Notes: generated by a model from the letters alone, not told the origin. Shown: positions 1 to 30,608, counted from the stretch's first letter. The stretch is DNA of 31,096 nucleotides from a virus (IMGVR_UViG_2974787870_000001); one strand, 5' to 3'. Numbers and translations are program-made.

Positions 1-2286
1 ATGGCCGTTAAAGCCTCCGGGCGTTTTGTCCCTCCGTCAGCATTTGCCGCAGGCACCGGTAAGGCGTTTACCGGTGCTTATGCATGGAACGCGCCACGCG
101 AGGCTGTCGGGCGCGAAAGACCCCTTACACGTGACGAGATGCGTCAGGTGCAAGGTGTTTTATCCACGATTAACCGCCTGCCTTACTTTTTGCGCTCGCT
201 GTTTACTTCACGCTATGACTACATCCGGCGCAATAAAAGCCCGGTGCACGGGTTTTATTTCCTCACATCCACTTTTCAGCGTCGTTTATGGCCGCGCATT
301 GAGCGTGTGAATCAGCGCCATGAAATGAACACCGACGCGTCGTTACTGTTTCTGGCAGAGCGTGACCACTATGCGCGCCTGCCGGGAATGAATGACAAGG
401 AGCTGAAAAAGTTTGCTGCCCGTATCTCATCGCAGCTTTTCATGATGTATGAGGAACTCAGCGATGCCTGGGTGGATGCGCATGGCGAAAAAGAATCGCT
501 GTTTACGGATGAGGCGCAGGCTCACCTCTATGGTCATGTTGCTGGCGCTGCACGTGCTTTCAATATTTCCCCTCTCTACTGGAAAAAATACCGTAAAGGA
601 CAGATAACCACGAGGCAGGCATATTCTGCCATTGCCCGTCTGTTTAACGATGAGTGGTGGACTCATCAGCTTAAAGGCCAGCGTATGCGCTGGCATGAGG
701 CGTTACTGATTGCTGTCGGGGAGGTCAATAAAGACCGTTCTCCTTATGCCAGTAAACATGCCATTCGTGATGTGCGTGCGCGCCGCCAGGCAAATCTGGA
801 ATTTCTTAAATCGTGTGACCTCGAAAACAGGGAAACCGGCGAGCGCATCGACCTTATCAGTAAGGTGATGGGCAGTATTTCTAATCCTGAAATTCGCCGG
901 ATGGAGCTGATGAACACCATTGCCGGTATTGAGCGTTACGCCGCCGCAGAAGGTGATGTGGGGATGTTTATCACGCTGACCGCGCCGTCAAAGTATCACC
1001 CGACTCGTCAGGTTGGAAAAGGCGAAAGTAAAACCGTTCAGCTTAATCACGGCTGGAATGATGAGGCATTTAATCCAAAGGATGCGCAGCGTTATCTCTG
1101 CCGTATCTGGAGCCTGATGCGCACGGCATTCAAGGATAATGATTTACAGGTCTACGGTTTGCGAGTCGTCGAGCCACACCACGACGGAACGCCGCACTGG
1201 CATATGATGCTTTTTTGTAATCCACGCCAGCGTAACCAAATTATCGAAATCATGCGTCGCTATGCGCTCAAAGAGGATGGCGACGAAAGAGGAGCCGCGC
1301 GAAACCGTTTTCAGGCAAAACACCTTAACCGGGGCGGTGCTGCGGGATATATCGCGAAATACATTTCAAAAAATATCGACGGATATGCACTGGATGGTCA
1401 GCTCGATAACGATACCGGCAGACCGCTGAAAGACACTGCCGCGGCTGTTACCGCATGGGCGTCAACGTGGCGCATCCCGCAATTTAAAACGGTTGGTCTG
1501 CCGACAATGGGGGCTTACCGTGAACTACGCAAATTGCCGCGCGGCGTCAGCATTGCTGATGAGTTTGACGAGCGCGTCGAGGCTGCACGCGCCGCCGCAG
1601 ACAGTGGTGATTTTGCGCTGTATATCAGCGCGCAGGGTGGGGCAAATGTCCCGCGCGATTGTCAGACTGTCAGGGTCGCCCGTAGTCCGTCGGATGAAGT
1701 TAACGAGTACGAGGAAGAAGTCGAGAGAGTGGTCGGCATTTACGCGCCGCATCTCGGCGCGCGTCATATTCATATCACCAGAACGACGGACTGGCGCATT
1801 GTTCCGAAAGTGCCGGTCGTTGAGCCTTTGACTTTAAAAAGCGGCATCGCCGCGCCTCGGAGTCCTGTCAATAACTGTGGAAAGCTCACCGGTGGTGATA
1901 CTTCGTTACCGGCTCCCACGCCTTCTGAGCACGCCGCAGCAGTGCTTAATCTGGTTGATGACGGTGTTATCGAATGGAATGACCCGGAGGTCGTGAGGGC
2001 GCTCAGGGGCGCATTAAAACACGACCGGAGAACGCCAAACCGTCAGCAAAGAAACGGAAGCCCGTTAAAACCGCATGAAATTGCACCATCGGCCAGACTG
2101 ACCCGGTCTGAACGATTGCAAATCACCCGTATCCGCGTTGACCTTGCTCAGAACGGTATCAGGCCGCAGCGATGGGAGCTTGAGGCGCTGGTGCGTGGCG
2201 CGACCGTAAATTATGACGGGAAAAAATTCACGTATCCGGTCGCTGATGAGTGGCCGGGATTCTCAACAGTAATGGAGTGGACATGA
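1..2286 (+). CDS. A: Replication initiation protein GpA (rolling-circle HUH endonuclease)
   Basis: 761-aa ORF; HUH-type motif 'PHWHMMLF' and paired-tyrosine motif 'YIAKYISK'; N-terminus and length match my recollection of P2 GpA. Confidence 0.93.
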   Translation: MAVKASGRFVPPSAFAAGTGKAFTGAYAWNAPREAVGRERPLTRDEMRQVQGVLSTINRLPYFLRSLFTSRYDYIRRNKSPVHGFYFLTSTFQRRLWPRIERVNQRHEMNTDASLLFLAERDHYARLPGMNDKELKKFAARISSQLFMMYEELSDAWVDAHGEKESLFTDEAQAHLYGHVAGAARAFNISPLYWKKYRKGQITTRQAYSAIARLFNDEWWTHQLKGQRMRWHEALLIAVGEVNKDRSPYASKHAIRDVRARRQANLEFLKSCDLENRETGERIDLISKVMGSISNPEIRRMELMNTIAGIERYAAAEGDVGMFITLTAPSKYHPTRQVGKGESKTVQLNHGWNDEAFNPKDAQRYLCRIWSLMRTAFKDNDLQVYGLRVVEPHHDGTPHWHMMLFCNPRQRNQIIEIMRRYALKEDGDERGAARNRFQAKHLNRGGAAGYIAKYISKNIDGYALDGQLDNDTGRPLKDTAAAVTAWASTWRIPQFKTVGLPTMGAYRELRKLPRGVSIADEFDERVEAARAAADSGDFALYISAQGGANVPRDCQTVRVARSPSDEVNEYEEEVERVVGIYAPHLGARHIHITRTTDWRIVPKVPVVEPLTLKSGIAAPRSPVNNCGKLTGGDTSLPAPTPSEHAAAVLNLVDDGVIEWNDPEVVRALRGALKHDRRTPNRQQRNGSPLKPHEIAPSARLTRSERLQITRIRVDLAQNGIRPQRWELEALVRGATVNYDGKKFTYPVADEWPGFSTVMEWT
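1851..1875 (+). promoter_or_regulatory. Candidate ori nick site inside gene A (cgcgcctcggagtcctgtcaataac)
   Basis: In P2 the origin lies within the A coding sequence and is nicked by GpA; this stretch matches my recollection of the published nick-site sequence. Recalled, not computed. Confidence 0.45.
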
Positions 2287-2738
2287 TGGCAAAAATTCAC
2301 GAGGTAAAGCTGCACGCAAAATATTTTGACCTTGTGCTGGAAGGAAAGAAACGCGCAGAGTTTCGGAAAAATGACCGTAATTATGAGCGCGGGGACACGT
2401 TGATTTTGCATGAATGGGTGCAGGGTGTGTATACGGGGCGAAAGGTTGAAGCCCGGATAACAGATGTTACTGACCTGTCAGACTGGCTGGAAGATTATGT
2501 CTTGCTAAGTATTGAGCTGCTTAATACAGGCGCATATGAGATTGTGAACTGGAAAGAACTTAGTGAGCGTGGTCTGGTATTCAGAATTAATCATGAAATT
2601 ATGCATCAGCTCGGCCTTGCTGTTATGTATGCACCAGAGACGGGGATGTCTGGCGGGGCAATGGTTGCCACGGATGGAGCATGGAACTATTCAGATGAAC
2701 AGATTGAGCGTGCACAGCAAAACGGGTGGCTTGGATAA
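2283..2738 (+). CDS. Hypothetical protein, N-terminal ASCH/PUA-like (DUF3850-like) domain
   Basis: ATG at 2283 overlaps the A stop (ATGA); 151 aa; N-terminal 'KIHEVKLHAKYFDLVLEGKKRAEFRKNDRNYERGDTLILHEW' resembles small ASCH-fold proteins; C-terminal half unassigned. Confidence 0.6.
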   Translation: MMAKIHEVKLHAKYFDLVLEGKKRAEFRKNDRNYERGDTLILHEWVQGVYTGRKVEARITDVTDLSDWLEDYVLLSIELLNTGAYEIVNWKELSERGLVFRINHEIMHQLGLAVMYAPETGMSGGAMVATDGAWNYSDEQIERAQQNGWLG

Positions 2739-2944
2739 TGCACAGAATACCAGGCGAGATACCGCACCATAAAACTAAAAATATCAAGCTGATGGCTATT
2801 GTTCAGCGTTTACAGCGGATTATGGTCAACGAAAATCTGACGCCTGACGAGCTGGTCGGGTGTGCCGAAATAGTCCGGGATAATTACGGGCGGCTTAATT
2901 ATATCCGTCAGTCCAGAGTTGCTCCACCGCCACGCAGACTATAG
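2738..2944 (+). CDS. Small hypothetical protein (68 aa)
   Basis: ATG at 2738 overlaps the upstream stop (TAATG), suggesting translational coupling; no recognisable motif. Confidence 0.4.
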   Translation: MHRIPGEIPHHKTKNIKLMAIVQRLQRIMVNENLTPDELVGCAEIVRDNYGRLNYIRQSRVAPPPRRL

Positions 2945-3118
2945 AAAACGCCGTCAGTCTTGAAACTTGTTTTCAGGGCTGGCGGGGTTGAACAACGAGC
3001 ATCGCGAGGCGTTAGTGGTATTGGAACCAATGAGAAAACAAAAAACTCAACGCCTCCCCTCATGTTTGATGGTATGGTCTTGTTTTTAGGTAATGAAGCT
3101 TTATTCGGGTGACGTGCC

Positions 3119-3124
3119 TAATAT
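3119..3124 (+). promoter_or_regulatory. Candidate -10 element (TAATAT) for the AT-rich cargo gene
   Basis: Near-consensus -10 hexamer about 36 nt upstream of the 3160 start; no convincing -35. Confidence 0.25.
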
Positions 3125-3159
3125 AGCTTTCTGCATGACGTTAGAATGATGATGAGATC

Positions 3160-3762
3160 ATGTTATTAATGAATGAGAAAAAAAGACAAAAATATCTAAA
3201 GATAATGTTTGAATGTCAAAAGCGACTTGAAACACTTCATGCTTTATCATCTGGAAGGATTGATGGCATTTATTTTCAAGTGTTAATTGAAATGGAGGCG
3301 TTGCAGCTTAGGAAGCTACTAGAGCTCATTGCATTTTCATCTCTAATTTCACATGAAAAAGCATACGAGAAGGTTACAAAGAAGATTGATGGTGTATGGA
3401 AGGCGAAGAATATATTTAAAGAGTTGGAAAAGATAAACCCTAACTTTTATCCAGTACCAATATCAGGAGTAACCAAAACGGGCTGGACGAAACTAACGGG
3501 AGGTTTTTTGACGAAAAAACAGTTTATCAAGCTATATGATGAATGCTCAAAACATATTCACGTAAGGAACCCATATCGGGTTAGGGAAAACTCGCTGGGG
3601 TTTCATAAAAAAGTTCCAGAGTATTTATCAAGAATTGAAACTCTACTGTTAAAGCACATTGTTTCTCTTGCCGGGAATGAAGAACTTCTTCTTGTAGATG
3701 TGCCTCATTATGAAGACTCTGTAACAGCTATAAAAATGAGCCACCTCGTTAAAATGGGGTGA
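3160..3762 (+). CDS. AT-rich cargo ORF of unknown function (200 aa) in the tin/old slot; candidate defence or exclusion protein
   Basis: Uninterrupted 200-aa ORF; visibly far more AT-rich than the flanking phage genes; sits between A and cos where P2 carries tin and old; followed by its own hairpin. Confidence 0.65.
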   Translation: MLLMNEKKRQKYLKIMFECQKRLETLHALSSGRIDGIYFQVLIEMEALQLRKLLELIAFSSLISHEKAYEKVTKKIDGVWKAKNIFKELEKINPNFYPVPISGVTKTGWTKLTGGFLTKKQFIKLYDECSKHIHVRNPYRVRENSLGFHKKVPEYLSRIETLLLKHIVSLAGNEELLLVDVPHYEDSVTAIKMSHLVKMG

Positions 3763-3798
3763 AAAATAAGCAATAAATAGTCGATTCTAGTGAACGGT

Positions 3799-3822
3799 CG
3801 GCTATTTTTAGCCGGATTTTTA
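3799..3822 (+). terminator. Weak intrinsic terminator after the 200-aa cargo ORF
   Basis: CGGCT-ATTTTT-AGCCG hairpin followed by a T-rich tract (GATTTTTAT). Confidence 0.4.
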
Positions 3823-3980
3823 TACTGTTTCCCCTTAATTACAGTCGTTTCTATTCATGCATGTGCTATTGCATCGAATTGCATGCGTTTTCATCCCCTG
3901 TTGCTTATGAGCGTTGTCAGTGCTGGCGCATTCTCGGTATGTTCATGCAACTGCATTAAAATCGCCCCATGAAGCGGGCG

Positions 3981-3999
3981 GGCGAGGCGGGGAAAGCAC
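3981..3999. other. cos: cos site core (19-nt cohesive-end sequence GGCGAGGCGGGGAAAGCAC)
   Basis: Sequence read directly; matches my recollection of the P2/186 19-nt cohesive end; lies in a GC-rich noncoding stretch next to the 3' end of Q, as in P2. Confidence 0.75.
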
Positions 4000-4141
4000 T
4001 GCGCGCTGGCGGTGGTGCTGATTTTATTTTTTCAGCGTCTCAGCGCGTCGTAATGGCGTTTAGATTGTGCGCCGGGGCGCTGGTGTGTCTGCGGGCTGTT
4101 TTGTGCGGTGGTGAGTGTGTGAGGGCGTGATGACGGGGTGT

Positions 4142-4163
4142 AAAAAAGCCGCCCGCAGGCGGC
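4142..4163 (-). terminator. Intrinsic terminator downstream of Q
   Basis: On the minus strand: GCCGCC-TGCG-GGCGGC hairpin followed by TTTTTT, just past the Q stop. Confidence 0.6.
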
Positions 4164-4168
4164 GATGT

Positions 4169-5203
4169 TCAGCCGTTGTCTGTGTCCAGTGAGTAGTTTT
4201 TAAAGCGGATGACCTCCTGACCGAGCCAGCCGTTTATTTCCCGAATCCTGTCCTGTAACGGGATAAGCTCATTGCGGACAAAGACCTTTGCCACTTTCTC
4301 AATATCACCCAGCGACCCGACGTTCTCCGGCTTGCCTCCCATCAACTGAAAGGGGATGCGGTGCGCGTCCAGCAGGTCAGCGGCGCTGGCTTTTTTGATA
4401 TTAAAAAAATCGTCCTTCGTTGCCACTTCACTGAGCGGGATAATTTTAATGCCGTCAGCTTTCCCCTGCGGGGCATAGAGAAACAGATTTTTAAAGTTGT
4501 TGCGGCCTTTCGATTTAACCATGTTTTCGCGAAGCATTTCGATATCGTTGCGATCCTGCACGGCATCGGTAACGTACATGATGTATCCGGCATGCGCGCC
4601 GTTTTCGTAATACTTGCGGCGGAACAGCGTGGCTGACTCATTCAGCCAGGCAGAGTTAAGGGCGCTGAGATATTCCGGCAGGCCGTACAGCTCCTGATTA
4701 ATATCCGGCTCCAGCAGGTGAAACACGGAGCCGGGCGCGAAGGCTGTCGGCTCGTTGAAGGACGGCACCCACCAGTAAACATCCTCTTCCACGCCACGGC
4801 GGGTATATTTTGCCGGTGAGGTTTCCAGTCTGATGACCTTACCGGTGGTGCTGTATCGCTTTTCCAGAAACGCATTACCGAACACCAGAAAATCCAGCAC
4901 AAAGCGGCTGAAATCCTGCTGGGAAAGCCACGGGTGCGGGATAAACGTTGAAGCCAGAATATTACGTTTGACGTAAATCGGTGAGCTGTGATGCACGGCA
5001 GCACGCAGGCTTTTTGCCAGACCGGTAAAGCTGACCGGTGGCTCATACCATCTGCCGTTACTGATGCACTCAACGTAATCCAGAATGTCACGGCGGTCGA
5101 GTACCGGCACCGGCTCGCCAAAGGTGAATGCTTCCATTTTCGGGGCGCTGGCGGTGATTGTTTTTGCCGCAGGTCGCGGTGTTTTCCCTTTTTTCTTGCT
5201 CAT
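4169..5203 (-). CDS. Q: Portal (capsid vertex) protein GpQ
   Basis: 344-aa ORF; position next to cos and overlap (ATGA) with the terminase gene; length matches P2 Q. Confidence 0.9.
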   Translation of the reverse strand: MSKKKGKTPRPAAKTITASAPKMEAFTFGEPVPVLDRRDILDYVECISNGRWYEPPVSFTGLAKSLRAAVHHSSPIYVKRNILASTFIPHPWLSQQDFSRFVLDFLVFGNAFLEKRYSTTGKVIRLETSPAKYTRRGVEEDVYWWVPSFNEPTAFAPGSVFHLLEPDINQELYGLPEYLSALNSAWLNESATLFRRKYYENGAHAGYIMYVTDAVQDRNDIEMLRENMVKSKGRNNFKNLFLYAPQGKADGIKIIPLSEVATKDDFFNIKKASAADLLDAHRIPFQLMGGKPENVGSLGDIEKVAKVFVRNELIPLQDRIREINGWLGQEVIRFKNYSLDTDNG

Positions 5204-6975
5204 CAGTAAAACTCCAGAATGGTGGATGTCAGCGGGGTGCTGATACCGGCGGTGAGTGGCTCATTTAACAGGGCGTGCATGGTCGCCCAGGCGAGGTCGG
5301 CGTGGCTGGCTTCCTCGCTGCGGCTGGCCTCATAGGTGGCGCTGCGTCCGCTGCTGGTCATGGTCTTGCGGATAGCCATAAACGAGCTGGTGATGTCGGT
5401 GGCGCTGACGTCATATTCCAGACAGCCACGGCGGATAACGTCTTTTGCCTTGAGCACCATTGCGGTTTTCATTTCCGGTGTGTAGCGGATATCGCGCGCG
5501 GCGGGATAGAACGAGCGCACGAGCTGGAACACGCCGACACCGAGGCCGGTGGCATCAATACCGATGTATTCGACGTTGTATTTTTCGGTGAGTTTGCGGA
5601 TGGATTCCGCCTGAGTGGCAAAGTCCATGCCTTTCCACTGGTGACGCTCAAGTATTCTGAATTTGCCACCGGCCACCACCGGCGGTGCCAGCACCACGCA
5701 TCCGGCGCTGTCGCCACGGTGTGACGGGTCGTAACCAATCCATACCGGGCGGGAGCCGAACGGATTGGCGGCAAACGGCGCATAGTCTTCCCATTCTTCC
5801 AGCGTGTCGACCATGCAGCGTTGCAGCTCCTCGAACGGGAACACCGACGCCTTGTCGTCCACAAATTCACACATGAACAGGTTTTTAAAATCGTCGGCGC
5901 TGTTTTCACGTTTGAGCTGCTCAATGTCGAACAGCGTGCAGCCGCCTTTCAGGGCATCCTCAATGGTGACAATCTGCCGCCACTGGCCGTCCGCACAGAG
6001 AAGCCCACCGGCAAGGGCGTTATGACTGACGTCGATTTCCACGCGTTCAGCGGCGCTGGCGCGTCCCCGGTTAAACAGTTCACCCGACCAGAACGGGTAG
6101 GCGTCGTGCGCCAGCGTGGACGGGGTGGAGAAATAGGTCGAGCGCAGGTGACTCTGTGAGGCCATACCTGATGCCACCTTACGCAGTACCTGAAAATTCG
6201 GGATCCAGAAAATCTCATCGACGTACAGGTCGCCGTTATGGCTCTGTGCGGTGTTGGAGTTGGTGCCGAGAAAAATCAGTTTTGCACCGTTATTGCCCAG
6301 GACAATCGGGTCACCGGTCAGGTCAACGTCAACCAGCCGGGCAAAGGCGATGATGTATTCGCGGAACACATACGCCTGCGTTTTACTGGCCGACAGAAAA
6401 ATCTGGTTATGACCGGTTTTCAGGGCGCGCAGCAGCGCCTCGCGGGAAAAATAAAACGTCGCGCCAATCTGGCGGGATTTCAGGATATCGCGGATGCGGT
6501 GCTCAAGCCCGGCGCGATACCAGTGCAACTGATAGTCGAAAGACTGCTCAAAGAAAATCTGCTCCAGCTTTTCGATGGCCTCGTCACTGAAAAAATTCTT
6601 TTTCGGTTTGCGCCGTCCGCCTTTGTTACGGTTAGCGACGTTCGGATTAAGGTCTGCCTCGTTGCCGGTCTGGCTGTAGCGGTTGACCCGTGCCAGTCGT
6701 TCAATCTGGCGTCCCAGCAGGTCAATTTCCTTGAAGTCACCGCCGGTTTTCTGTGGTTTGATGATGAGCTGGGTCAGCCGCGCTTCCAGACTCATTTCGA
6801 CACGGCTGATGGGGGCAACGCTGTCCCAGCCGTCGCGCTGTTTCCAGCTCTGCACTGTCGGGCGTTTCATCTGCAACATGGCGGCAATCTGCGGCACGGA
6901 AAACCCCTGCCAGTACAGCAGCGCCGCCTGACGACGCGGGTCGTGTAAAAGAGTGGTGTCTGTGGTGATGGTCAT
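5203..6975 (-). CDS. P: Terminase large (ATPase) subunit GpP
   Basis: Long minus-strand ORF; start taken at the internal Met 'MTITTDTTLLHDP' (590 aa) rather than the ORF-track start at 7005; divergent from O as in P2. Confidence 0.88.
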   Translation of the reverse strand: MTITTDTTLLHDPRRQAALLYWQGFSVPQIAAMLQMKRPTVQSWKQRDGWDSVAPISRVEMSLEARLTQLIIKPQKTGGDFKEIDLLGRQIERLARVNRYSQTGNEADLNPNVANRNKGGRRKPKKNFFSDEAIEKLEQIFFEQSFDYQLHWYRAGLEHRIRDILKSRQIGATFYFSREALLRALKTGHNQIFLSASKTQAYVFREYIIAFARLVDVDLTGDPIVLGNNGAKLIFLGTNSNTAQSHNGDLYVDEIFWIPNFQVLRKVASGMASQSHLRSTYFSTPSTLAHDAYPFWSGELFNRGRASAAERVEIDVSHNALAGGLLCADGQWRQIVTIEDALKGGCTLFDIEQLKRENSADDFKNLFMCEFVDDKASVFPFEELQRCMVDTLEEWEDYAPFAANPFGSRPVWIGYDPSHRGDSAGCVVLAPPVVAGGKFRILERHQWKGMDFATQAESIRKLTEKYNVEYIGIDATGLGVGVFQLVRSFYPAARDIRYTPEMKTAMVLKAKDVIRRGCLEYDVSATDITSSFMAIRKTMTSSGRSATYEASRSEEASHADLAWATMHALLNEPLTAGISTPLTSTILEFY

Positions 6976-7063
6976 GAATACCTCGCCGTGATGAATACAC
7001 GGCAAGGCTACTGAGTCGCGCCCCGCGATTCGCTAAGGTGCTGTTGTGTCAGTGATAAGCCAT

Positions 7064-19108: not shown

Positions 19109-19326
19109 GTTGTATGAGCTCTGGTGGGAGCTTACATATCTATGGCACAGAGTAAAGCCTAATCTGACAGTCCGCTCTGTGCTAGGAGCGGACATTGTTG
19201 CCATCTATCTGCATAAATCTGTGGGGAGCTGCTCACTTGTGGGGAATGAGTCCTCAACTGTTTGCGTTTATAAACACAATCCTTTAGATTTTCTCCTACT
19301 ATCTACTAAAATTTTATCTAGTGAAA

Positions 19327-20448
19327 ATGCCCAATAATCATATGTATGCAAGTCTACTGTCTTACAAAAACTTAAAGATGGCACATCAAGGAAGTAACTT
19401 ACGGTCTATTACTGAGTTTTCTCTCTATTCAGATAGTCAACCAATTGGGGCGGTTGATGATGATTCAGTTTATTGTTTTCTGAATATGCTACCCAGGATA
19501 ACCAAACAATCCACCGTTGCATCTTCAATTACAGTGCGCACAAAGTGGTATAGTGACTTAAATAATATGATTCTTTCTAGTTCTCAGAGTCATACAAAGG
19601 ATTATCATGGTGGATGGTATAATGATGAAATAGCTGCGCTTTCAAGTTTACTGCTTGGTGTCCGTTTTCATGCTGGGTCAATTACTCGTCACTATGATTA
19701 CTACACAGGTGATTTCGGAAGGATCCAAGCGGAGAGTTCTTTTCCTCCCGTTTTAGAGTTTAAACATAACAAACCTATAGTTCCTAATGCTATCAAAGAA
19801 ATTGATATAACTAACCTTAAAGAGCTTAACAATTTACATCTCTTAAGTGAAAAGAATTTCAACCATTTAATTAGAGCAGCCAGAAGCTATCAAAATGCAT
19901 TATGGATATGCGAGTCATCTCCAAATATGAGTTGGCTATTGATGGTGTCAGCCCTAGAATGTGCGGCTAATCAATGGGCAAAATCCAATGCGTCTAAAGA
20001 AGAAAGATTTAAACATGCCAAGCCTGAATTATATGAAAAATTAGATACCAATGAATTTAGACATTTAATCTCTATTATTGCTAATGAGTTTAAAGATTCA
20101 TTTGGGGCGACAAAGAAGTTTGTGGATTTCTGCCTGTATTTCCTTCCAGATGAACCTCAAGTGAGGCCAAAAGTAGGAAGAATTGATTGGGGAAAAGAAT
20201 CGCTATCAACAACTTTTAAAAAAATATATAACTACCGTTCTAAGGCATTGCATGGAGGACAACCATTTCCTGAGCCGATGTGTTCCTATCCTGAAGTATG
20301 GGATGGGTATATTGCTGAACGAGCGAGAGCATGTTCAACCTTAGGTGGAACGTGGTTGAATGAAGATGTGCCAATTAATTTAAATACATTCAACTTTATG
20401 ACCCATTCCATTTTGAATAAGTGGTGGCAATCTTTATTACCAAGTTAA
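19327..20448 (+). CDS. AT-rich cargo ORF of unknown function (about 373 aa) in the Z/fun slot; candidate defence or abortive-infection protein
   Basis: Long ORF in a strongly AT-rich island between G and FI; start uncertain (GTG 19321, ATG 19327, 19344 or 19378; none has a clear ribosome-binding site); Rx4H motif (RSKALH) near the C-terminus; perfect hairpin at its stop. Confidence 0.65.
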   Translation: MPNNHMYASLLSYKNLKMAHQGSNLRSITEFSLYSDSQPIGAVDDDSVYCFLNMLPRITKQSTVASSITVRTKWYSDLNNMILSSSQSHTKDYHGGWYNDEIAALSSLLLGVRFHAGSITRHYDYYTGDFGRIQAESSFPPVLEFKHNKPIVPNAIKEIDITNLKELNNLHLLSEKNFNHLIRAARSYQNALWICESSPNMSWLLMVSALECAANQWAKSNASKEERFKHAKPELYEKLDTNEFRHLISIIANEFKDSFGATKKFVDFCLYFLPDEPQVRPKVGRIDWGKESLSTTFKKIYNYRSKALHGGQPFPEPMCSYPEVWDGYIAERARACSTLGGTWLNEDVPINLNTFNFMTHSILNKWWQSLLPS

Positions 20449-20470
20449 CACTGTAAGTATCAGTGTTAAC
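20444..20470 (+). terminator. Perfect 10-bp inverted repeat (GTTAACACTG-N7-CAGTGTTAAC) at the end of the cargo ORF
   Basis: Read directly; overlaps the stop codon; AT-rich downstream, so terminator function is plausible but unproven. Confidence 0.4.
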
Positions 20471-20722: not shown

Positions 20723-21913
20723 ATGAGTGACTATCATCACGGCGTGCAGGTGCTGGAGATTAACGACGGCACCCGCGTCATTTCCACCGTATCCACCGCC
20801 ATTGTTGGCATGGTCTGCACGGCCAGCGATGCGGATGCGGAAACCTTCCCCGTCAATAAACCGGTGCTGATCACCAATGTGCAGAGCGCGATTGCAAAGG
20901 CCGGTAAAAAAGGCACGCTGGCGGCATCGTTGCAGGCCATCGCTGACCAGTCAAAACCGGTCACCGTTGTCGTGCGCGTGGAAGACGGCACCGGCGACGA
21001 CGAAGAAACGAAACTCGCGCAGACCGTTTCCAATATCATCGGCACCACTGACGAAAACGGTCAGTACACCGGACTGAAAGCCCTGATGGGCGCAGAGTCG
21101 GTTACCGGCGTTAAACCGCGCATTCTCGGCGTACCGGGACTGGACACCAAAGAGGTGGCGGTTGCACTGGCATCGGTATGCCAGGAACTGAATGCCTTCG
21201 GGTATATCAGCGCATGGGGCTGTAAAACCATTTCCGAGGCAAAAGCCTACCGTCAGAATTTCAGTCAGCGTGAGCTGATGGTCATCTGGCCGGATTTCCT
21301 TGCATGGGATACGGTCACCAGTACCACCGCCACCGCGTATGCCACCGCCCGTGCGCTGGGGCTGCGTGCCAAAATCGACCAGGAGCAGGGCTGGCATAAA
21401 ACGCTGTCCAACGTCGGGGTAAACGGTGTTACCGGCATCAGCGCATCTGTATTCTGGGATTTGCAGAAGTCTGGCACTGATGCTGACCTGCTGAACGAGG
21501 CAGGCGTCACAACGCTGGTTCGCCGCGACGGTTTCCGTTTCTGGGGTAACCGTACCTGCTCCGATGACCCACTTTTCCTCTTTGAAAGCTACACACGTAC
21601 CGCGCAGGTACTGGCCGACACGATGGCTGAGGCGCACATGTGGGCTATTGATAAGCCCATCACCGCAACGCTGATTCGCGACATCATTGATGGCATCAAT
21701 GCCAAATTCCGCGAACTGAAAAACAACGGTTATATCGTGGATGGCACATGCTGGTTCAGTGAAGAAGCCAACGATGCGGAAACCCTCAAGGCCGGAAAAC
21801 TGTATATCGACTACGACTATACACCGGTGCCTCCTCTCGAAAACCTGACCCTGCGCCAGCGTATTACTTCAAGATACCTGGCAAGTCTGGTCACCTCGGT
21901 TAACAGCAATTAA
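20723..21913 (+). CDS. FI: Tail sheath protein FI
   Basis: 396-aa ORF; synteny. Confidence 0.92.
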   Translation: MSDYHHGVQVLEINDGTRVISTVSTAIVGMVCTASDADAETFPVNKPVLITNVQSAIAKAGKKGTLAASLQAIADQSKPVTVVVRVEDGTGDDEETKLAQTVSNIIGTTDENGQYTGLKALMGAESVTGVKPRILGVPGLDTKEVAVALASVCQELNAFGYISAWGCKTISEAKAYRQNFSQRELMVIWPDFLAWDTVTSTTATAYATARALGLRAKIDQEQGWHKTLSNVGVNGVTGISASVFWDLQKSGTDADLLNEAGVTTLVRRDGFRFWGNRTCSDDPLFLFESYTRTAQVLADTMAEAHMWAIDKPITATLIRDIIDGINAKFRELKNNGYIVDGTCWFSEEANDAETLKAGKLYIDYDYTPVPPLENLTLRQRITSRYLASLVTSVNSN

Positions 21914-30309: not shown

Positions 30310-30608
30310 TGTCCTGTTCTCATTCAGTTGTATTACTGAATAACGCCTTAAAAATCGCCGTTATGGAAAATGGTGATTTGTCTCTTATTCAACTTTGTCT
30401 TGATAAAGAAAAACGCGACATAACTGAATCTGTTATCGCGATTTATCAGAATGAATTAAACCTCCTGTCTGATGTGGTCAATTTACTTGTTAAACGCGCT
30501 GTATTCCACAAGCAAATTTCCTCCGTGGATGAACTGACAAAATTAACGACAGAACTTGCCAGTTATTGCGCTGATGTATCCAGGAAACTTAACGATAAAA
30601 GGAGCTGA
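30306..30608 (+). CDS. Hypothetical early protein (100 aa), lower GC
   Basis: ORF with an AGGAG motif upstream of the following gene; AT-rich compared with neighbours. Confidence 0.55.

What the first reader, a model, noticed from the sequence alone, without database searches (positions are those of the whole stretch)
2945..3825. AT-rich 200-aa cargo ORF occupying the tin/old slot between gene A and cos
The region between the replication gene and cos carries tin and old in P2 and is the other known variable cargo locus. Here it holds one AT-rich ORF (3160..3762) with its own upstream noncoding region (about 215 bp) and a downstream hairpin with T-tract (3799..3822). No Old-type ATPase/TOPRIM protein is present in the slot. 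The protein has no motif I can assign (an RENSLGFH, Rx6H, stretch is too weak to interpret). Base composition and position argue for horizontally acquired cargo, possibly a small exclusion or defence protein.
Basis: partly seen in the sequence, partly recalled or inferred. Interest (0 to 1): 0.8.

Follow-up and report, generated by a model that had tools for sequence, protein, structure and literature searches.

The report
Unknown cargo gene in P2 hotspot
A real, horizontally acquired single gene of unknown function sits in the known anti-phage "hotspot" of a P2-type prophage next to cos. It belongs to a large unannotated protein family with a HEPN-like fold, so it is a reasonable but untested candidate for a new phage-defence protein.

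Summary
Window 3160-3762 (+) is a 200-aa ORF; the start conserved in homologues is ATG 3169 (197 aa). Its GC is 35.7% against 52.1% for the window. It lies between the gpA/orf91 block and cos (19-mer at 3981-3999), and a terminator-like hairpin follows at 3798-3825. It is a real gene: dN/dS is 0.07-0.16.

It is a self-contained cassette of about 850 bp (3017 to about 3865). The same backbone flank occurs in 343 complete E. coli genomes, and only 20 carry this cassette. Others carry ParB/methylase sets, Orf97 with other genes, or a PDC-S15 candidate.

The protein has no Pfam, NCBIfam, PADLOC or PDB sequence match. It is PHROG 13799 (unknown function) and is listed, untested, as P2-hotspot "system #58" in Rousset et al. 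2022.

It belongs to a family of at least 2,262 50%-identity clusters across many phyla. Members are solitary, AT-rich relative to their flanks (42 of 45 loci), and often sit on mobile elements or beside defence genes.

Best reading: an untested single-gene anti-phage or exclusion effector of HEPN-like fold.

The parts
2726..2944 (+). Left-flank backbone gene (72 aa as the longest ORF; 68 aa in NCBI's PGAP annotation). It is a homologue of PSP3 gp37/orf37 and is not part of the cassette.
   Evidence: 76% identical to PSP3 gp37. PHROG 11386. Present with orf91 in 343 E. coli genomes whatever the cargo.
2947..3016 (+). Conserved structured ~70-nt element: a hairpin at 2947-2989 followed by GTTGAACAACGAG..GCGAGGCGTTAG. 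Its 3' end is the left junction of the variable slot.
   Evidence: MFE -47.9 kcal/mol, z = -4.96 for 2940-3070. RNAalifold on 9 copies gives 23 pairs, 5 with compensatory changes. Sequence is conserved up to 3016 and diverges after it. The element is found in 66 P2/186-family phage records. No Rfam match.
3017..3168 (+). Cassette-specific 5' non-coding region (AT-rich). It presumably holds the gene's own promoter and ribosome-binding site, but none was identified by consensus.
   Evidence: It diverges from other prophages right after 3016. It is partly alignable with the upstream regions of the Enterobacter, Salmonella and E. coli homologues. No + strand sigma-70-like hit. The Salmonella homologue has TTGGCG-16-TATAAT at the equivalent place.
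3160..3762 (+). Cargo ORF, 200 aa (conserved start ATG 3169, 197 aa, WP_021519103.1). It is a member of a large unannotated family with a HEPN-like helical core plus a small beta-sheet.
   Evidence: PHROG 13799, E 1.8e-109. Identical to system #58 of PMC9122126 Table S5B.
3798..3825 (+). Terminator-like hairpin (TCGGCTATTTTTAGCCGG) followed by a T-run, 36 nt after the stop codon.
   Evidence: Terminator scan hit: 6 sites found against 1.1 expected in the region. The MFE structure contains the stem, but z is only -1.6.
3869..3892 (+). Right junction, where the backbone resumes. A TGCAT-N-TTGCATGCGTTTT motif is shared by P2-like and 186-like loci just left of cos.
   Evidence: Invariant columns at 3870-3872 and 3880-3884 in loci with unrelated cargo. 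Also present in Enterobacter prophages, P2 and 186.
3981..3999 (+). cos 19-mer GGCGAGGCGGGGAAAGCAC, the right limit of the slot.
   Evidence: Identical to the cosR annotated in NC_001895. Read from the sequence.

Best explanation
Window 3017 to about 3865 is a self-contained, horizontally mobile single-gene cassette. It is inserted in the gpA-cos accessory hotspot of a P2-like prophage.

The 197/200-aa product is a soluble enzyme-like protein of a large, unannotated family. Its core is a HEPN-like four-helix bundle (helices 6-30, 39-62, 119-133 and 145-164). The core carries an inserted helical hairpin (66-92) and a small beta-sheet (99-111, 165-196).

The most likely role is a stand-alone anti-phage or exclusion effector of the abortive-infection type. 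Other single-protein HEPN-family Abi proteins such as AbiV and AbiU2, and the positional analogues Tin and Old, work this way.

On the proposed mechanism, the protein is kept inactive or harmless in the lysogen. On infection it would attack RNA or a nucleotide substrate through a pocket built from R51/E55 (helix 2), H134/N137 (end of helix 5) and H166 (end of helix 6). Y12, R22 and E44 would assist.

Shown: it is a real gene; it is mobile cargo; it has no partner gene; the fold resemblance; and which residues are conserved.

Inferred: the defence role, the substrate, the grouping of those residues into one site, and regulation.
For: Real and constrained: dN/dS is 0.07-0.16. Fourteen positions, including 11 polar or aromatic ones, are at least 90% conserved across 283 homologues from many phyla.

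Cassette: the junctions are at 3016/3017 and about 3865-3870. Unrelated cargo lies between the same junctions in other E. coli prophages. 20 of 343 backbone-bearing genomes carry it.

Hotspot: this gpA-portal slot is experimentally established as a reservoir of anti-phage systems (PMC9122126 section 10; PMC9519451; bioRxiv 10.64898/2026.02.27.708500).

Stand-alone: no neighbour family recurs across 45 loci. The gene occurs alone in the window and in Enterobacter. It assorts independently of the adjacent Orf97.

Defence and mobile-element company:
- an AbiL-like pair in the same slot;
- a PDC-S15/FRG candidate in the same slot;
- phage 186 Orf97, annotated as "blocks 186 infection", as neighbour;
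- P0242 between Thoeris+Fic and HsdR/SymE/NACHT, and also on a conjugative element;
- P0232 at the cargo end of a capsid-encoding satellite-like element;
- P0218 beside HEPN_AbiU2;
- P0204 among toxin-antitoxin pairs, an HD/HD_assoc (dGTPase-like) protein, HsdM and AbiEi/Eii;
- P0263 beside a DpnII/MboI-like protein.

Composition: AT-richer than the flanks in 42 of 45 loci, median -10.7 GC points.

Against: There is no experimental test. The protein is listed but not among the systems cloned in PMC9122126.

No PADLOC model matches it or 60 diverse relatives.

The canonical HEPN Rx4-6H motif is absent, and no Pfam HEPN family matches even at E<=1. RNase activity is therefore only an analogy.

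Many chromosomal relatives sit among ordinary metabolic genes. Among 150 neighbours from 45 loci only a handful hit defence models. No formal enrichment test could be done.

The hotspot also carries non-defence cargo such as partition systems and a cytolethal distending toxin (PMC9122126).

No promoter was identified in the window copy, so expression in lysogens is unknown.
Confidence: 0.45

Rival explanations
1. A non-defence accessory gene ("moron"): an enzyme or binding protein that alters host physiology, such as stress tolerance or small-molecule or nucleotide metabolism. On this reading it sits in the slot only because the slot tolerates insertions.
For: Many family members lie singly among metabolic or housekeeping genes with no defence gene nearby. 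The hotspot is known to carry non-defence cargo. No defence-model hit. The conserved residue set (R, E, H, N, H, Y) fits many enzyme chemistries.
Against: The gene recurs on phages, a satellite-like element and a conjugative element, and beside Thoeris, RM, Abi and toxin-antitoxin genes. Its distribution is patchy, AT-rich and solitary across phyla, which is typical of conflict genes. The closest folds are toxins and Abi proteins.
Confidence: 0.25
2. A prophage-selfish factor rather than a host defence. It could be a toxin-like addiction or stabilisation module, or a superinfection-exclusion factor aimed at related P2/186-type phages or P4-type satellites during induction.
For: In 186-like Salmonella and E. 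coli prophages the homologue lies directly after tum and orf97, downstream of a perfect LexA box (CTGTATGTATATACAG). It is therefore within, or just after, the SOS-induced p95 unit. Orf97 itself blocks 186 infection (annotation). The window copy lies downstream of the early-operon element, and no terminator with a T-tract lies in between. The closest folds are HEPN toxins.
Against: No antitoxin-like partner is conserved. The Salmonella-type copy has its own strong promoter-like site (10/12 match), which suggests independent expression. Systems in this hotspot mostly did not act on P2-like phages in PMC9122126.
Confidence: 0.15
3. An anti-defence protein that helps the phage overcome host immunity, for example a catalytically diverged HEPN-like decoy or inhibitor.
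For: P2-like phages occasionally carry anti-defence genes (28 of 1,511 elements). The canonical HEPN catalytic motif is missing.
Against: Anti-defence genes are rare in P2. A near-universal set of polar residues conserved across phyla argues for catalysis rather than mimicry. Many homologues are in non-phage chromosomal sites.
Confidence: 0.07
4. Not a functional gene: a chance ORF or decaying remnant in AT-rich junk DNA.
For: No annotated function. No clear promoter or Shine-Dalgarno sequence in the window copy. Truncated 123-aa alleles are common in Salmonella Typhimurium.
Against: dN/dS is 0.07-0.16. The family has at least 2,262 50%-identity clusters. The AF2 model is confident. The identical protein is on at least 852 contigs. 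A 603-nt ORF in 36% GC DNA is itself unlikely by chance.
Confidence: 0.02

Closest known systems
HepT/HEPN toxins of MNT-HEPN (type VII) toxin-antitoxin systems (PDB 7ae2, 8xdj, 5yep) and related DUF86/HEPN proteins (1ylm, 2hsb, 1jog)
   Different: No sequence or profile similarity. No adjacent MNT antitoxin. The RX4HXY / Rx4-6H catalytic motif is absent. The window protein has an extra helical hairpin and a beta-sheet subdomain, so only about 60% of it aligns.
Single-protein HEPN-family abortive-infection proteins (AbiV, PDB 9bj5; AbiU2, Pfam PF18734; AbiD/F, AbiJ). Their family assignment to HEPN follows Anantharaman et al. 2013 and is from my own knowledge.
   Different: No Pfam or PADLOC match to any of them. 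The conserved residues differ. No phenotype is known.
P2 Tin and Old (NC_001895)
   Same: Positional analogues: non-essential lysogenic-conversion genes between orf91 and cos, in an AT-rich accessory slot.
   Different: No sequence similarity. Old is an ABC-ATPase plus TOPRIM protein of 586 aa, and Tin is 253 aa. Both are on the opposite strand, with a promoter near cos. The window gene is on the + strand.
Other single-gene or unannotated systems validated in the same hotspot (DUF4238 protein, "three hypothetical proteins", DprA+PRTase: PMC9122126; PD-T4/PD-T7/PD-lambda systems: PMC9519451)
   Same: Same locus and same kind of cargo. Several have only remote HEPN-like similarity.
   Different: PADLOC 2.0.0, which as far as I know models these systems, gives no hit. 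The window protein is listed as system #58 but was not cloned or tested.
Phage 186 Orf97
   Same: It is the immediate upstream neighbour of the 70-72%-identical homologues in Salmonella and E. coli prophages. It is an accessory gene of the same slot, annotated as blocking 186 infection.
   Different: Unrelated protein (243 aa, N-terminal membrane helix). It assorts independently of this family and is absent from the window.

Membership tests
HEPN superfamily | Four-helix up-and-down alpha-helical core (fold-level similarity) | tested here: met
HEPN superfamily | Conserved Rx4-6H catalytic motif at the start of the last core helix | tested here: not met
   The window has R142-x6-H149 at the topologically expected place. 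Across 283 homologues, position 142 is R in 8% and position 149 is H in 21%. The Salmonella homologue has S-E there.
HEPN superfamily | Sequence-profile match to a curated HEPN family (Pfam/NCBIfam) | tested here: not met
   No Pfam hit at E<=1 for the protein. None for 61 diverse members in Pfam or NCBIfam. No PDB sequence hit with profiles.
HEPN superfamily | Metal-independent RNase activity, usually from a composite site in a dimer | not testable with these tools
   This needs biochemistry or a multimer model. Coordinates of the model were not available for site geometry.
OLD-family nucleases (P2 Old) | ABC/AAA ATPase domain plus TOPRIM domain | tested here: not met
   200 aa with no Pfam or PADLOC hit. 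No tblastn match to phage records, which include P2.
P2 Tin | Sequence homology to Tin (NP_046797) | tested here: not met
   tblastn of the protein against 50,697 phage records, including NC_001895 and AF063097, found no match at E<=1e-3.
Known or candidate defence systems (PADLOC-DB 2.0.0) | HMM match to a system component | tested here: not met
   0 families for the protein. Only isolated weak hits (E>5e-4, one member each) among 61 relatives.
Type II toxin-antitoxin toxin | Conserved adjacent antitoxin gene | tested here: not met
   No recurrent neighbour family in 45 loci. The gene is alone in the slot in the window and in Enterobacter L012/L014.
PHROG 13799 | Full-length profile match | tested here: met
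   E 1.8e-109, residues 4-200 against profile 1-197 of 198. The family is annotated "unknown function".
P2-hotspot "system #58" (Rousset et al. 2022, Table S5B) | Identical representative protein sequence, located between gpA and gpQ | tested here: met
   The exact 200-aa sequence is listed, with 70 occurrences and no Pfam, TM helix, signal peptide or notes. It is absent from the tables of cloned systems.
P2 gpA-cos variable-cargo cassette | Different genes between identical backbone junctions in related prophages | tested here: met
   Left junction at 3016/3017 and right junction at about 3865-3870. Alternative cargo in L063-L066 and in P2. 20 of 343 backbone-bearing genomes have this cassette.

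The most novel reading that the evidence does not exclude
The ORF is the first recognisable member, in a model organism's prophage, of a large unrecognised family of single-protein immune effectors. The family has at least 2,262 clusters at 50% identity, spans many bacterial phyla, and is absent from Pfam, NCBIfam, PADLOC and the PDB.

On this reading the HEPN-type helical scaffold has lost the Rx4-6H site. It has evolved a different, intramolecular catalytic centre (R51/E55/H134/N137/H166) supported by an added beta-sheet subdomain, and may act on a substrate other than the usual HEPN RNA targets.

A secondary novel element: the ~70-nt structured repeat that ends at the insertion point (2947-3016) may be the recombination or transcript-end joint at which cassettes are swapped in P2/186-type phages.
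Probability: 0.25. Interest if true: 0.65.

Novelty: new variant of a known kind. Interest (0 to 1): 0.45.

Why it matters
P2-type prophages are a major, fast-swapping source of E. coli immunity, and about half of their hotspot cargo is still unannotated.

This cassette is short (about 850 bp) and single-gene. It is present unchanged in hundreds of sequenced E. coli isolates and is easy to clone.

If it protects against phages, it would name and give a first handle on a family of more than two thousand sequence clusters that no database currently describes. It would also show how a HEPN-like scaffold can work without its hallmark motif.

If it does not protect, it is a clean example that position in the hotspot alone does not predict defence.

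The junction element next to it may help explain how cassettes are exchanged at this site.

Tried and rejected
- **Sequence annotation.** Pfam, NCBIfam and PADLOC gave nothing for the protein or for 61 diverse relatives. PDB sequence searches with two family profiles built from 41 and 61 sequences were also empty. PHROGs gave only an unknown-function family.
- **Phage records.** Megablast covers only the flanks, and tblastn finds no homologue in 50,697 GenBank phage records. The gene is so far seen in prophages, not in sequenced virions.
- **Structure searches.** Foldseek against the PDB and BFVD gave no significant match. The afdb50 library was unavailable.
Rejected, because it is not conserved.
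- **A two-gene system with the upstream 243-aa protein.** Rejected. That protein is phage 186 Orf97 and it assorts independently. It is unrelated to the 307-aa neighbour in Pseudomonas.
- **A conserved partner or antitoxin.** All-against-all BLAST of ±4 neighbours in 45 loci found no recurrent family.
- **Fusions as functional hints.** Longer family members (P0052, P0056, P0062, P0115) carry extensions with no Pfam match. P0115 has N-terminal hydrophobic stretches that look like membrane helices.
- **An antisense promoter.** The site at 3219->3191 (TTGACA-17-GATATT, 10/12) could suggest a type I TA-like antisense RNA. Its -35 comes from the Cys-Gln codons TGT CAA. Most homologues have Arg at the Gln position, so the site is probably chance in AT-rich DNA.
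- **Rfam.** No match for the hairpin element or anything else in 2600-4300.
- **The search for related loci with the diverse alignment.** It failed because no conserved 7-10-column stretch exists. It was repeated with the closer alignment.
- **Literature.** No paper mentions WP_021519103 or phrog_13799.

Full report
**Setting.** The window is a P2-like prophage of E. coli. It opens with gene A (1-2286), followed by an orf91-like DUF3850/ASCH gene and a 72-aa ORF. After the region in question come cos, then the portal (4169-5203, -) and terminase (5203-7005, -) genes. The cos 19-mer GGCGAGGCGGGGAAAGCAC lies at 3981-3999, identical to the annotated cosR of P2. The finding therefore sits in the gpA-cos slot, which in P2 holds tin and old on the opposite strand.

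**Checking the observation.**
- The ORF 3160-3762 (+) exists and is the only substantial ORF in the slot. Homologues and NCBI's PGAP annotation start at ATG 3169, giving 197 aa.
- GC is 35.7% (GC3 33%), against 52.1% for the window with sd 6.2% for windows of equal size. Only one other region, about 19250-20450, is equally AT-rich.
- A terminator-like hairpin with a T-run follows at 3798-3825. Its folding z-score is unremarkable at -1.6.
- The 215-bp upstream gap is real, but its first ~72 bp is conserved backbone (see the junction element below).
- The gene is under strong purifying selection. dN/dS is 0.07-0.10 against homologues 70-77% identical in Enterobacter, Salmonella and another E. 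coli lineage, and 0.08-0.16 between other pairs.

**It is a cassette.**
- The left flank up to 3016 is found in 343 of 5,426 complete E. coli genomes. The ORF is in only 20 of them, at 98.8-99.9% identity.
- Alignment of prophages sharing that flank shows identity up to 3016 and complete divergence afterwards. On the right, similarity resumes at a TGCAT..TTGCATGCGTTTT motif (about 3869-3892) and is near-perfect from about 3953 through cos.
- Between these junctions other prophages carry:
  - ParB-N, a hypothetical protein and a Dam-type methylase;
  - a cytosine methyltransferase, a hypothetical protein and ParB-N;
  - Orf97 plus an unrelated 260-aa protein;
  - Orf97, a 70%-identical homologue of our protein, and an FRG-domain protein that matches the PADLOC candidate PDC-S15.
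That is excluded.

**What is known about it.**
- The protein has no Pfam, NCBIfam or PADLOC match and no PDB sequence match.
- It matches PHROG 13799, "unknown function".
- No sequenced phage in a 50,697-record collection encodes it.
- The exact sequence is listed in Rousset et al. 2022 (PMC9122126), Table S5B, as P2-hotspot system #58. That entry has 70 occurrences among 18,150 loci and no domain, transmembrane helix, signal peptide or note. It does not appear in that paper's tables of cloned systems.
- All database names are "hypothetical protein", and the identical protein is on at least 852 contigs. No paper mentions its accession or PHROG number.
- So its existence is catalogued and its function is not.

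**The family.**
- A word-indexed search found 44 close clusters in Gammaproteobacteria.
- An exhaustive profile search found 2,262 representatives of 50%-identity clusters at E<=1e-3, and 1,494 at E<=1e-10. Nearly all are 185-230 aa.
- Genome hits span Proteobacteria, Bacteroidota, Firmicutes, Acidobacteriota, Cyanobacteria and Verrucomicrobiota.
- None of 61 diverse members matches Pfam, NCBIfam or PADLOC meaningfully.
- Across 283 sequences the near-universal residues are Y12, R22, E44, Q49, R51, E55, N93, Y97, P98, P100, H134, N137, P138 and H166.

**Structure.**
- AlphaFold2 with the 41-sequence alignment gives a confident model (pLDDT 86.3, pTM 0.86). It has six helices (6-30, 39-62, 66-76, 82-92, 119-133, 145-164) and a small sheet (99-111, 165-169, 176-180, 192-196).
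- Foldseek finds nothing significant, but again lists HEPN proteins first. BFVD gives nothing.
- I conclude that the helical core is HEPN-like at fold level. The protein fails the defining Rx4-6H motif test and every sequence-profile test, so I do not file it as a HEPN family member.
- The conserved R/E on helix 2 and the H..N and H at the ends of the last two core helices suggest an active site. I could not check their spatial clustering because no coordinates were available.

**Context.**
- No partner gene is conserved.
- Homologues 70-77% identical occupy the same slot in several prophage types:
  - Enterobacter P2-like prophages, alone or with an AbiL-like pair;
  - Salmonella 186-like and E. 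coli P2-like prophages, directly after a 243-aa protein.
- That 243-aa protein is phage 186 Orf97 (91% identical), annotated as blocking 186 infection when expressed from a plasmid.
  - There the gene lies downstream of tum and a perfect LexA box.
  - It also has its own promoter-like site, TTGGCG-16-TATAAT.
- More distant members have these neighbours:
  - between Thoeris/Fic and HsdR/SymE/NACHT genes, and on a conjugative element;
  - at the end of a capsid-encoding satellite-like element;
  - beside HEPN_AbiU2;
  - among toxin-antitoxin pairs, an HD/HD_assoc protein, HsdM and AbiEi/Eii;
  - beside a DpnII/MboI-like gene;
  - beside an IS200-type transposase.
- Many others lie alone among metabolic genes. 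Only a few of 150 neighbours hit defence models.
- Family members are AT-richer than their flanks in 42 of 45 loci, median -10.7 points.
- This pattern fits a mobile conflict gene, but I could not compute a formal enrichment.

**Verdict on mechanism.**
- The best-supported reading is a stand-alone anti-phage or exclusion effector with a HEPN-like scaffold and a non-canonical catalytic centre (confidence 0.45).
- The defence role rests on three things: the experimentally established nature of the slot, the company the family keeps, and the fold.
- The substrate (RNA or nucleotide) is inference by analogy.
- The rivals are a non-defence moron (0.25), a prophage-selfish toxin or exclusion factor tied to induction (0.15), an anti-defence protein (0.07) and a non-gene (0.02).

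**Novelty and interest.** The locus type is well known and the protein is already listed as an unannotated hotspot entry. New here are the size and breadth of its family, the fold assignment, the conserved residue set, the absence of the HEPN motif and the cassette boundaries. It is one of very many untested hotspot genes, so a specialist would be interested rather than surprised. It is directly testable.

**The junction element.**
- The 2947-3016 element is a long hairpin followed by GTTGAACAACGAG..GCGAGGCGTTAG. It ends exactly at the insertion point.
- It is conserved in 66 P2/186-family phage records.
- It follows orf97 in phage 186, just before the annotated terminator t95b.
- It follows the gp37-like ORF in the window and in PSP3.
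- It occurs twice in several hotspots:
  - in E. coli KK19-02 the two copies flank the Orf97-plus-homologue block;
  - in Salmonella the two copies are about 396 bp apart, downstream of the homologue.
- Nine copies support the hairpin with compensatory changes at five pairs. Rfam has no match.
- It may mark transcript ends or serve as the homologous joint for cassette exchange. This was only partly followed up.

Noticed in passing
window 2947-3016; also L066 6700-6767 and 8383-8450; L007 8652-8719 and 9047-9115; L017 10662-10722 and 11059-11119; phage 186 (NC_001317) 30343-30412: A conserved ~70-nt structured element: a long hairpin followed by GTTGAACAACGAG..GCGAGGCGTTAG. It ends exactly at the left junction of the variable slot and is repeated at cassette boundaries in some prophages. 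There are compensatory changes at 5 of 23 pairs. It has no Rfam match and is unannotated in 186, where it lies between orf97 and terminator t95b. It could be a transcript-end or RNA-stability element, or the recombination joint for cassette swapping.
   Followed up: partly
window 19250-20450 (ORF 19321-20448, +, 375 aa): The second strongly AT-rich stretch of the window (about 35% GC). It lies between the tail-fibre genes (911-aa and 175-aa ORFs) and the 396-aa ORF at 20723, which is the position of P2's second (Z/fun) accessory hotspot. The 375-aa protein has no Pfam or PADLOC match.
   Followed up: partly
window 3869-3892; L083 (phage 186) 4003-4032; L067 (P2) 5955-5980: A TGCAT-N-TTGCATGCGTTTT-like motif is conserved just left of cos in P2-like, 186-like and Enterobacter prophages whatever the cargo, and in the P4 sequences quoted in PMC9122126. 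It marks where backbone similarity resumes. Its function is unknown; it may be part of the cos/terminase recognition region.
   Followed up: no
L007 7186-7917; L015 7187-7918; L065 6919-7650; L066 6920-7651: The 243-aa membrane-anchored protein next to the 70-72%-identical homologues is phage 186 Orf97 (91% identical, "expression from plasmid blocks 186 infection"). It occurs in P2-like as well as 186-like prophages and combines with different downstream genes. It has no Pfam or PADLOC match.
   Followed up: partly
L007 6627-6642 and 7928-7955: A perfect LexA box (CTGTATGTATATACAG) lies upstream of tum in the Salmonella 186-like prophage. A strong promoter-like site (TTGGCG-16-TATAAT) lies in the 83-bp gap just upstream of the homologue. 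The window copy has a ~10-nt insertion at the equivalent place and no recognisable promoter.
   Followed up: partly
window 1-31096 versus RefSeq records (NZ_CP054371.1, NZ_CP059130.1, NZ_CP151017.1, NZ_OY754371.1, NZ_CP104598.1 and others): Several complete E. coli chromosomes match at exactly the window's own coordinates (for example 2945-3900 and 2250-3016). These assemblies were therefore rotated to start at the first base of the prophage gene A. Presumably a start-fixing tool mistook the P2 replication endonuclease for a replication-initiator gene.
   Followed up: no
window 3191-3219 (- strand): A promoter-like site (TTGACA-17-GATATT, 10/12) lies antisense to the 5' end of the ORF. The -35 derives from codons that differ in most homologues, so it is probably chance in AT-rich DNA.
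   Followed up: partly
protein cluster of P0006 (Salmonella); NZ_CM196105.1 (hit H51): Truncated 123-124-aa alleles of the Salmonella homologue are common (231 contigs, S. Typhimurium). One E. coli genome has only the first 60% of the cassette, in three places. This may be decay or IS disruption.
   Followed up: no
L011 9258-10978 (- strand): In one Enterobacter P2-like prophage the same slot also holds an AbiL-like pair. The 399-aa protein hits PADLOC AbiLi at 9e-26, and the 172-aa protein hits AbiLii weakly. This is an example of stacked cargo in the hotspot.
   Followed up: partly
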